64,000 bases of DNA. Origin: Escherichia coli O157:H7 (GTDB taxonomy: Bacteria; Pseudomonadota; Gammaproteobacteria; Enterobacterales; Enterobacteriaceae). Position numbers: made by a program. This document shows positions 48,001 through 51,000 of the stretch, one piece after another. Where the stretch lies: assembly GCF_013167455.1 (NCBI RefSeq), contig NZ_CP038328.1, one strand, 5' to 3'. Position 1 is the first letter of the stretch. Every line of letters starts with the position of its first letter.

Positions 48001-51000
48001 GTACGCTTTTTTAACTGCTGTGTAACAGCCTGTTCTGCTGTCAGTTCCCATCTGGCAATAAGCAATTTCTCCTCATAGTCGTCTTCGCTATCGCCATCAG
48101 GCACATCGTTTTTACTTCTCCTCAGATACGATATGTAAAAATCGCGCCAGGCATCCAGATCCAGTTGCCCTCGCTTATTCGATATCGGGGCACCCGGCAA
48201 TTTCTGCAATCTGCGAAGCTGGCGATCGGTCAGACTTAAATGCCTGGCAACTTCAGTCTGCGTAGCCACTCCTCACCTCGCAAAAACTCTCACCTCACAA
48301 TCACAACAAAACCGGTCATGTCCGGTTTACATGTCTGTTTTTTGTTCATGTCCGGTTCACAGAAGACCTGTTTTTATATTTTTCATATAGTTAACTTGAA
48401 GAGAAACCGGACATGGATCCCGGAAAATTTTCATAAATAGCGAAAACCCGCGAGGTCGCCGCCCCGTAACCTGTCGGATCGCCGGAAAGGACCCGCAAAA
48501 TGATAATAATTATCATCTACATGTCACAACGTGCATCTACGCCATCAAACCACGTCAAATAATTAATTATGACGCAGGTATCGTATTAATTGATCTGCAT
48601 CAACTTAACGTAAAAACAACTTCAGACAATACAAATCAGCGACACTGAATACGGGGCAACCTCATGTCAACGAAGAACAGAACCCGCAGAACAACAACCA
48701 GTTACAGATGCTTTATTAAGGAAAAAAACAGCCAGCACTGACTTTCGGTGGAGAGGTGCTGGCTCAGAAGGATAGTTGGATTTCACATGATACTTATGCC
48801 TGGCGGTATATTTTCTGACAGACAGTGACGGGTGTTGTCAAGATATTGTGTCATTTATAACCTGAATCAGGGGAGGCCGGAATGTTATCTGGCATTTTTA
48901 GCAGAGCCTGAATGCCATAATCACGGCTCCCGGAGTTGGCCGTCAGTGGGTGACACTGGCGGCTTTTTTGTTTTTCTTTACTTTCATTTTCTGTCGGCGG
49001 TGACGGAGACATACATCAGATGGAAAAAATCACAACAGGTGTGTCATACACCACGTCAGCGGTGGGGACGGAATACTGGTTACTGCAGCTGCTGGACAAA
49101 GTCTCTCCGTCCCAGTGGGTGGCAATAGGTGTGCTGGGAAGTCTGCTGTTTGGCCTGCTGACGTATCTGACTAACCTGTATTTCAAAATCAGAGAGGACC
49201 GTCGTAAGGTGGCGCGGGGAGAGTAGTCGATGAATAAACAATACGAACTGGTTGTAAAATGAATATTTCTAACTGAAAAAACGTTCCATGAGGTAAGAAA
49301 AGGTCACAGGCAATCAATAACAGGACGTGATGAAAGACCCTTGCATTTGTGCGCTTTCTCTTTAGATAGCAGCAGATACTGAAAATCTGAGTTGTCGGGG
49401 AGTCAGGGATACAGCTGTGCAAGAGTTGGTCATTGTGATTCCATTGAAATCCTGTATGCCATGAAGGGCAGGATTTTATGGCTACCTGAGCTTTGGTGAT
49501 AGTAAGTTGAAAATTCGCATTTTTTGCTGACATGCGTAACGAGAATCCCATAAGCAGGGAGGACTTAATTCTTCATTAACCCATGCGTTGATATTATGTT
49601 TCAGCCGTTGAAGCATCAGCGGTGTTAATGTTGTGGTAATAATATCCAGCGTTTTATGTGAGATCTTACCGTAAGGGTCTGCAAGAATGCTGCTTGTTGC
49701 TTCGTTATTATCTGCCATCAGAAGAAGTAACTCTGATTTAACGTTTTCTGTCATTAGTTGTAAAAATCTTCTGCGCAAACTTTCTTTACTGTTCATTTAT
49801 ATGGCTTCATTTGTTGTAATCTGCTGCGTCTCAAGGGATATGTTTATGAGAGCGACCATGAGTGTTGGATTATATACCTAACATATCAAGGGATTAGAAA
49901 TCGATAAATCCCCATGAACGAAAAAATAAAATACGGCCTGTCGGCTGCCGTTCTGGCGCTGATTGGTGCAGGTGCTTCTGCGCCTGAAATCCTCGACCAG
50001 TTTCTGGATGAAAAGGAAGGTAACCACACCACGGCATACCGTGATGGTGCGGGGATCTGGACCATCTGCCGTGGTGCCATTCTGGTGGATGGTAAGCCTG
50101 TTATTCCTGGCATGAAGCTGTCAAAGGAAAAATGCGACCGGGTTAATGCCATCGAACGTGACAAGGCGCTGGCATGGGTGGAGAAAAACATCCGGGTGCC
50201 GCTGACCGAACCCCAGAAAGCGGGGATCGCGTCATTCTGTCCGTACAACATTGGCCCCGGTAAGTGCTTCCCGTCGACGTTTTATAAACGAATTAATGCA
50301 GGCGATCGAAAAGGTGCCTGTGAGGCGATTCGCTGGTGGATTAAGGACGGTGGCAGAGACTGCCGTATCCGTTCAAATAATTGCTACGGTCAGGTCTCAC
50401 GGCGTGACCAGGAGAGCGCGCTGGCGTGCTGGGACATCGACAGATAGCAGAATATTTTCCTGAAAAATGACGTTGGCCAACGCGGGTGGATAACACGAAA
50501 TCCTGAAAACTGGTAAAACCTAAGTGAATAAAAGTAAAAACCCCGTTTGTTGGCAGCAAGCGGGGTTTTGTGTTTTCTGACCTTGAGTAAGGCAAGGGAG
50601 AAATTATGGGTAGGGAGGTACTTTCCCTGTGAGGAAGTATAAAAGATTCTTTCTGAGGTTGTCCATTATGAAAGGCATTGAAGTGGAGACGCCAGCCAGT
50701 CTGGATTTAACAAGAGCGGCAGCTTTTGCCATTCGTATTGTGGCCATTGCTGTTCTGGTCTGGGCAATCCGTTGGTGGTGATATGAACCGTGTTCTGTGT
50801 GTGGTTATCATTGTCCTGCTGGTGGCCTGTGGTGCGCTTAGTCTGGGGCTGAATCATTACCGTGATCACGCCATCATCTACAAAGAGCAGCGCGATAAAA
50901 AAGCCAGAGAGCTGGAACAGGCGAATGCCACCATTACTGACATGCAGGTGCGCCAGCGTGATGTTGCTGCGCTCGATGCAAAATACTCGAGGGAATTAGC

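What the first reader, a model, noticed from the sequence alone, without database searches (positions are those of the whole stretch)
48311..48470. Intact lambda-type cos site retained next to broken packaging genes
cosN (GGGCGGCGACCT) and three cosB R elements are present, although nu1, terL, E and D are all damaged. The element could in principle be packaged in trans by a helper lambdoid phage with matching terminase specificity.
Basis: partly seen in the sequence, partly recalled or inferred. Interest (0 to 1): 0.3.

Follow-up and report, generated by a model that had tools for sequence, protein, structure and literature searches.

The report
Known cos site of O157 prophage Sp4
This is the DNA-packaging (cos) site of the defective E. 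coli O157:H7 prophage Sp4. It is sequence-intact although its own packaging genes are broken, and a 2009 study already detected Sp4 DNA in phage particles and attributed this to a sister prophage, so the finding is real but not new.

Summary
cosN (GGGCGGCGACCT) sits at 48453-48464 on the minus strand. Three exact copies of CATGTCCGGTT fall at R3/R2/R1-like positions around an IHF-like element. nu1 is split by ISEc8, terL is frameshifted in a poly-G run, E is truncated and D carries an amber codon.

The window is prophage Sp4 of E. coli O157:H7, 99.6% identical to strain Sakai. Only the cosQ-cosN side is lambda-type: 82 of 85 bases match from -40 to +45. cosB is at background identity to lambda (32/120) and phage 21 (29/120). 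The N-terminal DNA-binding domain of the small terminase has no BLASTP similarity to lambda, 21 or N15.

With ISEc8 removed, cos-nu1-terL is 100% identical over 988 bp to sister prophage Sp14, whose terminase genes are intact in Sakai. The restored small terminase is identical, apart from the GTG start codon, to that of the PhiR12 phage records.

Asadulghani et al. 2009 reported the ISEc8-disrupted nu1, identical Sp4 and Sp14 cos sites, DNase-resistant Sp4 DNA after mitomycin C, and Sp14 terminase as the likely helper. They saw no transfer to K-12. Verdict: already known; low interest. The non-lambda cosB anatomy is a small addition.

The parts
48488..48494 (-). cosQ heptamer GGGTCCT, at -29 to -23 relative to cosN base 1
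   Evidence: Identical to lambda, phage 21 and DLP12; sequence checked. Invariant in 40 distinct cos variants. Phage 21 annotates the same heptamer as cosQ.
48453..48464 (-). cosN cohesive-end sequence GGGCGGCGACCT. Base 1 is window 48464.
   Evidence: The only exact match in the window. Identical to lambda, 21, DLP12, Sp14 and PhiR12.
48420..48452 (-). Positions 13-45 after cosN, 33/33 identical to lambda. Contains the IHF site TATGAAAATTTTCCG marked in Fig S8 of the 2009 paper.
48404..48415 (-). R3-type box CATGTCCGGTTT at positions 50-61, the proposed main small-terminase binding site
   Evidence: Zero variable columns across 40 distinct variants. Lambda R3 is at 53-64; the annotated phage 21 R3 feature spans 50-65, with its 12-mer core at 53-64.
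48381..48393 (-). I1-like element TAACTATATGAAA at positions 72-84, followed by an A/T tract. Candidate IHF bend site between R3 and R2.
   Evidence: Same place and orientation as I1 of phage 21, annotated at 74-86, and as the corresponding lambda sequence taacttaatgttt. Its complement has two mismatches to WATCARNNNNTTR, as does lambda's (read from the sequences). No exact consensus match lies in cos. Only 2 of 13 columns vary. IHF binding is inferred.
48347..48358 (+). R2-type box at positions 107-118. Reads CATGTCCGGTTC on the plus strand, so it is inverted relative to R3.
48317..48328 (+). R1-type box at positions 137-148. Reads CATGTCCGGTTT on the plus strand: inverted relative to R3 and in the same orientation as R2.
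   Evidence: In lambda and 21, R1 has the orientation of R3.
48310..48320 (-). Forward copy with one mismatch, CATGaCCGGTT. It overlaps R1 and makes R1 nearly palindromic.
   Evidence: It is lost in variants u33 and u38 while the inverted R1 is kept, so it is probably dispensable.
48007..48269 (-). nu1 (small terminase) 5' part, from the GTG start at 48269 to the ISEc8 insertion point. Encodes the N-terminal DNA-binding domain.
   Evidence: Annotated as incomplete in PA20 and as ECs_1101 in Sakai.
45569..48006 (-). ISEc8 (IS66 family; tnpA, tnpB and transposase), flanked by the 8-bp duplication TTAAAAAA at 48007-48014 and 45561-45568
   Evidence: Removing the IS plus one duplication copy restores a sequence 100% identical to Sp14.
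45314..45560 (-). nu1 3' part (oligomerisation and large-terminase-binding half)
   Evidence: Pfam Phage_Nu1 matches residues 49-150 of the restored protein.
43412..45342 (-). terL (gene A homologue), frameshifted by a G11 run at 45072-45082. G9 is the in-frame length.
39754..40101 (-). D (head decoration) gene with amber codon 9 at 40075-40077
   Evidence: The exact 81-mer is found in only 4 of 5426 complete genomes.
39430..39696 (-). Remnant of E (major capsid protein), 88 codons
   Evidence: The same truncation is present in Sp14.

Best explanation
The region is the cos site of the defective lambdoid prophage Sp4 of E. coli O157:H7. It has the standard tripartite lambda-family layout. cosQ and cosN are lambda-identical and are the parts handled by the large terminase subunit. 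cosB has the R3 - IHF-like site - R2 - R1 arrangement but uses its own repeat, CATGTCCGGTTy.

That repeat is matched to a small terminase whose N-terminal DNA-binding domain differs from those of lambda, 21 and N15. Sp4 cannot make this enzyme, because ISEc8 splits nu1 and, in this window, terL is frameshifted. The site itself is unchanged. A small/large terminase pair of the same specificity, supplied in trans, should therefore bind the R boxes, nick cosN and package the roughly 49.8-kb excised element. Sister prophage Sp14 in the same genome, or PhiR12-type phages, encode such a pair.

Shown here: the sequence anatomy, identity to Sp14, and conservation of the boxes. Shown in the literature: DNase-resistant Sp4 DNA is released after mitomycin C. 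Inferred: that the R boxes bind this small terminase, that IHF bends the spacer, and that packaging starts at this cos using Sp14 terminase.
For: - **Identity of the window.** The reverse complement aligns to Sakai Sp4 at 99.63% over 32.6 kb, with no difference between 45083 and 49129.
- **Anatomy.** cosQ, cosN and positions 13-45 match lambda at 82 of 85 bases. cosB is at background identity: 32/120 to lambda and 29/120 to phage 21. The three exact 11-mers are confined to cos. The spacing resembles that of lambda and phage 21.
- **Cognate enzyme exists.** The IS-free reconstruction is 100% identical over 988 bp to Sp14, whose terS (ECs_2736) and terL (ECs_2735) are annotated intact. The restored 169-aa small terminase matches PhiR12_1 Nu1 at 168 of 169 residues; the single difference is the GTG start codon, shown as V against M.
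- **Constraint on the boxes.** Across 40 distinct cos variants (this window plus 39 from 79 IMG/VR loci), R3 is invariant. R boxes vary at 5 of 36 columns against 24 of 63 spacer columns (Fisher p = 0.012). cosQ varies at 0 of 7 columns and cosN at 1 of 12.
- **Experiment.** In PMC2669165, Sp4 was circularised, amplified and recovered as DNase-resistant DNA after mitomycin C. The authors attribute this to Sp14 terminase.
Against: - No experiment shows cleavage at this cosN or dependence on Sp14 terminase.
- Sp14 carries the identical cos and the intact enzyme, yet was not detected as packaged (Table 2). The authors link this to its low level of circular DNA.
- Sp4 and Sp14 both lack a full-length major capsid gene. 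Proheads must therefore come from yet another prophage and still dock with this large terminase.
- The marked Sp4 gave no transfer to K-12.
- Identity of cos to Sp14 is not evidence of selection. The two prophages are 99.86% identical over the next 9.5 kb.
- The source strain of the window is not identified, so I cannot say whether its own Sp14 terminase is intact. The poly-G run in terL varies between assemblies.
Confidence: 0.72

Rival explanations
1. The site is a young, neutral relic. It is sequence-intact only because Sp4 and Sp14 diverged, or exchanged sequence, recently and ISEc8 arrived recently. It has no biological role, and the particle-associated Sp4 DNA is incidental.
For: - Sp4 and Sp14 are 99.86% identical over 9.5 kb downstream of the IS and 100% identical over 693 bp at cos, so cos shows no excess conservation.
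- The ISEc8 target duplication is perfect, and excision in silico restores the gene exactly.
- No transfer of marked Sp4 to K-12 was seen.
- K-12's cryptic prophage DLP12 likewise keeps a complete lambda-type cos next to a truncated gene A remnant. Intact cos sites beside dead packaging genes are therefore commonplace.
Against: Competence and usefulness are separate questions. Sp4 DNA was found in DNase-resistant form above the chromosomal controls. This rival does not dispute that the site could be cut.
Confidence: 0.2
2. The packaged Sp4 DNA reported in 2009 was not packaged from this cos. It was taken up by the machinery of the massively induced Stx2 phage Sp5, whose in-situ replication amplifies the Sp4 region. 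The mechanism would be generalised or lateral-type packaging.
For: - Sp4 is amplified only through regional replication driven by Sp5.
- Packaged Sp4 appears only after mitomycin C, when Sp5 reaches at least 10^10 particles per ml.
- Sp14, with the same cos and an intact terminase, was not packaged.
Against: - The qPCR used the primers that detect the attP junction of excised, circularised Sp4, and chromosomal controls were lower.
- I did not examine the Sp5 packaging mechanism here.
Confidence: 0.08

Closest known systems
cos of O157 Sakai prophages Sp4 and Sp14 (Asadulghani et al. 2009, PLoS Pathog, PMC2669165, Fig S8)
   Same: It is the same locus. The paper reports ISEc8 in nu1 and identical cos and Nu1 sequences in Sp4 and Sp14, marks cosQ, cosN and one IHF site, detects packaged Sp4 DNA and proposes Sp14 terminase as helper. 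The window is 99.63% identical to Sakai Sp4.
   Different: The published alignment stops at ...GGGATCCATGT, so the cosB R boxes are not described. The window differs from Sakai Sp4 by a +2 G frameshift in terL and an amber codon in D.
Bacteriophage lambda cos (cosQ-cosN-cosB with R3-I1-R2-R1)
   Same: cosQ and the 12-base cosN are identical, and positions 13-45 match 33/33. The overall order and spacing of three repeats around an IHF-type site upstream of nu1 are the same.
   Different: cosB is 32/120 identical. The repeat is CATGTCCGGTTy rather than CGTTTCCkTTCT. The R3 12-mer starts 3 bp closer to cosN. R1 is inverted. The small-terminase N-terminal domain has no BLASTP similarity to Nu1.
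Phage 21 cos and gp1 (the classic alternative packaging specificity)
   Same: Same cosN and cosQ and the same tripartite cosB. The 21 boxes (CGTGTCGGTACT, CATGTCGGACCT, CATGTCGGGCCT) share CATGTC..GG with the Sp4 box.
   Different: The Sp4 box has an extra C and a different 3' half (GGTTT rather than GnCCT). cosB is 29/120 identical. The gp1 N-terminal domain is not similar by BLASTP.
Escherichia phages PhiR12_1, _2, _2_star, _4 and _5 (PV340549-PV340554)
   Same: Same cosB type: 107/120 identical, with all three R boxes identical. The small terminase matches at 168/169 residues, the single difference being the start codon. These are deposited as complete phage genomes with K-12 MG1655 or E. 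coli C given as host.
   Different: Their nu1 and terL are intact, terL has no poly-G run, and the spacer sequences differ.
Cryptic prophage DLP12 of E. coli K-12 (cos - nohD - aaaD)
   Same: Another defective lambdoid prophage that keeps a complete cos next to a truncated gene A remnant.
   Different: The DLP12 cosB is lambda-type. Its nohD is annotated as a full-length CDS, while aaaD is annotated as a pseudogene.
cos-type phage-inducible chromosomal islands of E. coli (EcCICFT073; Fillol-Salom 2019, PMC6739421; Murialdo & Feiss 2022, PMC9026076)
   Same: Elements without their own terminase that carry a cos and are packaged by a helper's lambda-like terminase (abstracts).
   Different: Per those abstracts, PICIs actively hijack and redirect helper-phage packaging and block phage reproduction. 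Sp4 is a decayed full-size prophage with the helper's own cosB; I did not search it for a redirecting gene.

Membership tests
Lambda-like cos site (12-base 5' cohesive-end phages as defined by Feiss, PMC4669245) | [quoted passage not shown] | tested here: met
   12/12 identical, at 48453-48464 on the minus strand.
Lambda-like cos site (12-base 5' cohesive-end phages as defined by Feiss, PMC4669245) | Conserved 7-bp cosQ about 30 bp upstream of cosN | tested here: met
   GGGTCCT at -29 to -23 (48488-48494). Invariant in 40 variants.
Lambda-like cos site (12-base 5' cohesive-end phages as defined by Feiss, PMC4669245) | Complex cosB: three R repeats with an IHF site between R3 and R2, upstream of the small-terminase gene | tested here: met
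   Three exact 11-mers at 50-60, 108-118 and 138-148. An I1-like element lies at 72-84. The nu1 GTG start is at position 196. IHF binding itself was not tested.
Lambda-like cos site (12-base 5' cohesive-end phages as defined by Feiss, PMC4669245) | R2 oriented opposite to both R3 and R1 | tested here: not met
   R2 is opposite to R3, but R1 has the orientation of R2. The forward half-site overlapping R1 is lost in two natural variants, whereas the inverted R1 is retained.
Lambda-like cos site (12-base 5' cohesive-end phages as defined by Feiss, PMC4669245) | Terminase nicks cosN to give cohesive ends, and DNA is packaged from it | not testable with these tools
   The only evidence is indirect: DNase-resistant Sp4 DNA in PMC2669165.
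Lambda packaging specificity (cosB-lambda with Nu1) | R boxes of lambda type (CGTTTCCGTTCT and CGTTTCCTTTCT) | tested here: not met
   cosB positions 46-165 are 32/120 identical to lambda, and the boxes read CATGTCCGGTTy.
Lambda packaging specificity (cosB-lambda with Nu1) | Small-terminase N-terminal winged-HTH domain homologous to Nu1 residues 1-68 | tested here: inconclusive
Phage 21 packaging specificity | R boxes CaTGTCGGnCCT and a gp1-type recognition domain | tested here: not met
   The boxes differ by an inserted C and in the 3' half. cosB is 29/120 identical. The gp1 N-terminal domain is not aligned by BLASTP.
N15 packaging specificity | N15-type cosN and an N15 small-terminase N-terminal domain | tested here: not met
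   The N15 left end reads GGGCGGCGTCCG and lacks these boxes. N15 gp1 aligns only from residue 59 onward. The N-terminal 80 residues found no N15 record by tblastn.
E. coli O157:H7 prophage Sp4 | Same sequence and gene order as Sakai Sp4, ISEc8 in nu1, and attR next to serT | tested here: met
   99.63% identity over 32.6 kb. ISEc8 lies at the annotated position, and serT/hya flank the element.

The most novel reading that the evidence does not exclude
The CATGTCCGGTTy cosB, paired with the MATQTEVARHL... small-terminase domain (Sp4, Sp14, PhiR12 and many E. coli prophages), is a further packaging-specificity class among lambda-like cos phages, not yet characterised by experiment. It would be distinct from lambda, 21 and N15, and its R1 is inverted. 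Defective O157 prophages of this class would then form a closed helper/passenger group that lambda-, 21- or N15-specific terminases cannot mobilise.
Probability: 0.55. Interest if true: 0.3.

Novelty: already known. Interest (0 to 1): 0.12.

Why it matters
Sp4 carries virulence-related cargo: pchA lies within the element, and effector pseudogenes sit at its end. A working cos is what lets such a dead prophage still leave the cell in borrowed capsids.

That point was made experimentally in 2009, so the finding adds no new principle. The small increment is the cosB anatomy. The specificity part of this cos is not lambda's, which determines which helpers could mobilise it. It also gives the lambda/21/N15 packaging-specificity work a natural, widespread fourth repeat/recognition-domain pair to test.

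Tried and rejected
- **Phage 21-type cosB.** I suspected this from the CATGTC motif. I rejected it after fetching phage 21 (OL657228): the boxes differ, cosB is 29/120 identical, and the small-terminase N-terminal domains are not similar by BLASTP.
- **N15-type.** Rejected.
- **Sippy et al. 2015 (PMC5006951),** sought for the lambda/21 R consensus, is not held. I read the boxes from the annotated phage 21 record instead.
- **Two paper look-ups** failed on terms shorter than 3 characters.
- **Exact IHF consensus scan** found no site inside cos. The I1-like call therefore rests on position, on orientation, and on having two mismatches to the consensus, as lambda's I1 does.
- **Word-indexed protein search** with the N-terminal domain returned almost only E. 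coli fragments. The exhaustive representative search gave the diverse full-length relatives used for the model.
- **Identifying the source strain** via the D amber codon failed. Four genomes carry the exact 81-mer. In the one I inspected, it lies in the Sp14-like prophage, not in Sp4. Whether the amber codon and the G11 run are real or assembly errors in the source record cannot be decided.
- **Literature search** for a prior description of this cosB (terms cosB + O157) returned nothing relevant in the held library.
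Full report
**Observation**

The 12-mer GGGCGGCGACCT occurs once in the window, at 48453-48464 on the minus strand. 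Read on that strand, the region follows the order of a lambdoid late operon: cosQ, cosN, cosB, then nu1.

Anchored on cosN, positions -40 to +45 match lambda at 82 of 85 bases.

The 11-mer CATGTCCGGTT occurs exactly three times in the 64 kb, all inside cos. A fourth copy with one mismatch overlaps the last one. At up to one mismatch there are 6 matches against 1.29 expected, and 0 of 100 shuffles reach 6. So cosN and three R-type repeats are real and not chance.

**Where the window comes from**

The cos region is 100% identical to many E. coli O157:H7 genomes. The reverse complement of the window aligns to the Sakai chromosome at 99.63% over 32.6 kb, within the feature annotated 'prophage Sp4, lambda-like phage'. 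The rest of the window holds the Sp4 tail genes, serT and the chromosomal hya/app/gfc/tor genes.

**The damaged genes**

- **nu1** is interrupted by ISEc8 at 45569-48006, flanked by the duplication TTAAAAAA. Removing the IS and one duplication copy restores a 169-codon reading frame.
- **terL** has a G11 run at 45072-45082. Sakai Sp4 and Sp14 have G9, which is in frame; strain PA20 has G8. The window copy is therefore frameshifted.
- **D** has TAG at codon 9.
- **E** is reduced to 88 codons, in Sp4 and in Sp14 alike.

The D amber codon and the G11 run are not found in Sakai. The amber 81-mer is in only 4 of 5426 complete genomes, and in the one I inspected it lies in the Sp14-like prophage. 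I cannot tell whether these two changes are real or errors in the source assembly.

**Anatomy of cos**

Position n after cosN base 1 corresponds to window coordinate 48465-n.

| Element | Position relative to cosN | Sequence / note |
|---|---|---|
| cosQ | -29 to -23 | GGGTCCT |
| cosN | 1-12 | GGGCGGCGACCT |
| lambda-identical stretch | 13-45 | includes the IHF site marked in the 2009 paper |
| R3 | 50-61 | CATGTCCGGTTT |
| I1-like element + A/T tract | 72-84 | TAACTATATGAAA |
| R2 | 107-118 | inverted relative to R3 |
| R1 | 137-148 | inverted relative to R3 |
| nu1 start | 196 | GTG |

The layout and spacing mirror lambda and phage 21. Their R3 12-mers sit at 53-64, and I1 of phage 21 is annotated at 74-86. 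The sequence does not match, however. From 46 to 165 the window is 32/120 identical to lambda and 29/120 to phage 21, which is background level.

Phage 21 boxes (CGTGTCGGTACT, CATGTCGGACCT, CATGTCGGGCCT) share CATGTC..GG with the Sp4 box but are otherwise different. R1 is inverted relative to its orientation in lambda and 21.

**The cognate protein**

The restored small terminase matches Nu1 of phage PhiR12_1 at 168 of 169 residues; the single difference is the GTG start codon, shown as V against M. Only five phage records, all named PhiR12, share this cosB and nu1 at the DNA level.

Its C-terminal half is 46%, 43% and 40% identical to lambda Nu1, N15 gp1 and phage 21 gp1. The first ~70 residues have no BLASTP similarity to any of them. 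Pfam Phage_Nu1 matches only residues 49-150.

My reading is that this is a Nu1-family small terminase with a strongly diverged winged-helix recognition domain, paired with its own R box.

**Constraint on the boxes**

Seventy-nine IMG/VR loci encoding the same small terminase gave 39 distinct cos variants. With the window sequence, that makes 40 variants.

- cosQ is invariant, and cosN varies in one sequence.
- R3 is invariant.
- R boxes vary at 5 of 36 columns against 24 of 63 spacer columns (Fisher p = 0.012).
- Two variants lose the forward half-site overlapping R1 but keep the inverted R1.
- One variant has a 30-bp deletion that fuses R2 and R1.

**A helper in the same genome**

The IS-free reconstruction, 988 bp from 20 bp upstream of cosQ into terL, is 100% identical to prophage Sp14 in Sakai and in dozens of other O157 genomes. 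In Sakai, Sp14 terS and terL are annotated intact.

**What is already published**

Asadulghani et al. 2009 (PMC2669165) reported the following:

- All lambdoid Sakai prophages except Sp4 encode an intact terminase, and Sp4 nu1 is disrupted by an IS (ISEc8).
- Sp4 is amplified by regional replication from the neighbouring Stx2 phage Sp5, is excised and circularised, and is detected as DNase-resistant particle DNA after mitomycin C.
- Sp4 and Sp14 cos sequences are identical, and Sp14 terminase most likely does the packaging.
- Marked Sp4 gave no transductants in K-12, and Sp14 itself was not detected as packaged.

Their Figure S8 marks cosQ, cosN and one IHF site and stops where lambda homology ends, so cosB is not described. 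A search of the held library found no description of this cosB.

**Interpretation**

The site is a complete, unmutated cos. Its cosQ and cosN are lambda-type. Its cosB belongs to a different recognition class, shared with Sp14 and the PhiR12 phages.

Three steps remain inferred: that the R boxes bind this small terminase, that packaging of Sp4 starts at this cos, and that Sp14 supplies the enzyme.

There are complications:

- Neither Sp4 nor Sp14 has a full capsid gene.
- Sp14 was not packaged.
- No transfer was seen.
- The identity of cos to Sp14 reflects recent common ancestry, not demonstrable selection.

The Sakai Sp4 feature spans 1161092-1210882, about 49.8 kb or roughly 103% of lambda. 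From general knowledge of lambda, this is within the packageable size range.

**Verdict**

The feature is real and correctly read, apart from the 'lambda-type' label for cosB. It is already known and of low interest. The cosB and small-terminase pairing is a modest, testable addition.

Noticed in passing
window 48759-53265, with a breakpoint at ~48700-48710: Relative to Sp14, the segment holding IS629, pchA, Rz/Rz1, endolysin and holin is inverted in Sp4, so the lysis genes now lie antisense to the late operon. The cos-proximal breakpoint falls inside the DUF3950/ylcI-like gene. Its first 12 codons (MSTKNRTRRTTT, ATG at 48664, plus strand) stay next to cos. PA20 annotates a DUF3950 fragment lacking its N-terminus immediately next to the IS629 transposase (L001 16709-16789). 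This IS629 copy also has an internal deletion of roughly 230 bp. The same arrangement is seen in Sakai and PA20.
   Followed up: partly
window 45072-45082 (terL): A poly-G run of variable length: G11 here, G9 (in frame) in Sakai Sp4 and Sp14, G8 in PA20 Sp4. PhiR12 has no homopolymer at this place. Some assemblies annotate the Sp14-like terL as split. This could be slippage or homopolymer sequencing error.
   Followed up: partly
window 40075-40077 (D, codon 9): An amber codon (TAG where Sakai encodes Gln) in the head-decoration gene. The exact 81-mer occurs in only 4 of 5426 complete E. coli genomes. In ECP19-598 it lies in the Sp14-like prophage, not in Sp4, which hints at exchange between the two prophages.
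   Followed up: partly
IMG/VR loci L012-L091 (region upstream of the small-terminase gene): One natural variant (u20) has a 30-bp deletion that fuses R2 and R1, apparently by recombination between the two direct repeats. This resembles the unequal crossing-over between R sites proposed for the origin of the simple N15 cosB. Another variant (u33) has cosN GGGCGTCGACCT.
   Followed up: no
L005 6600-6850 (E. coli K-12 DLP12, NC_000913.3 ~580600-580850): The cryptic prophage DLP12 keeps a complete lambda-type cos (cosQ, cosN, lambda R3/R2/R1) upstream of nohD and the truncated gene A remnant aaaD. This is another intact cos beside dead packaging genes.
   Followed up: partly
L009 15371-15637 (Sakai Sp14) and window 39430-39696: Sp14, the proposed terminase donor, has the same truncated major capsid gene as Sp4 (267 nt). 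Neither prophage can build proheads, so a third prophage must supply them.
   Followed up: no
window 2640-2651 (+): GGGCGGCGAACT, a one-mismatch match to cosN in the chromosomal part of the window. This is consistent with chance: 0.39 matches expected at up to one mismatch.
   Followed up: no
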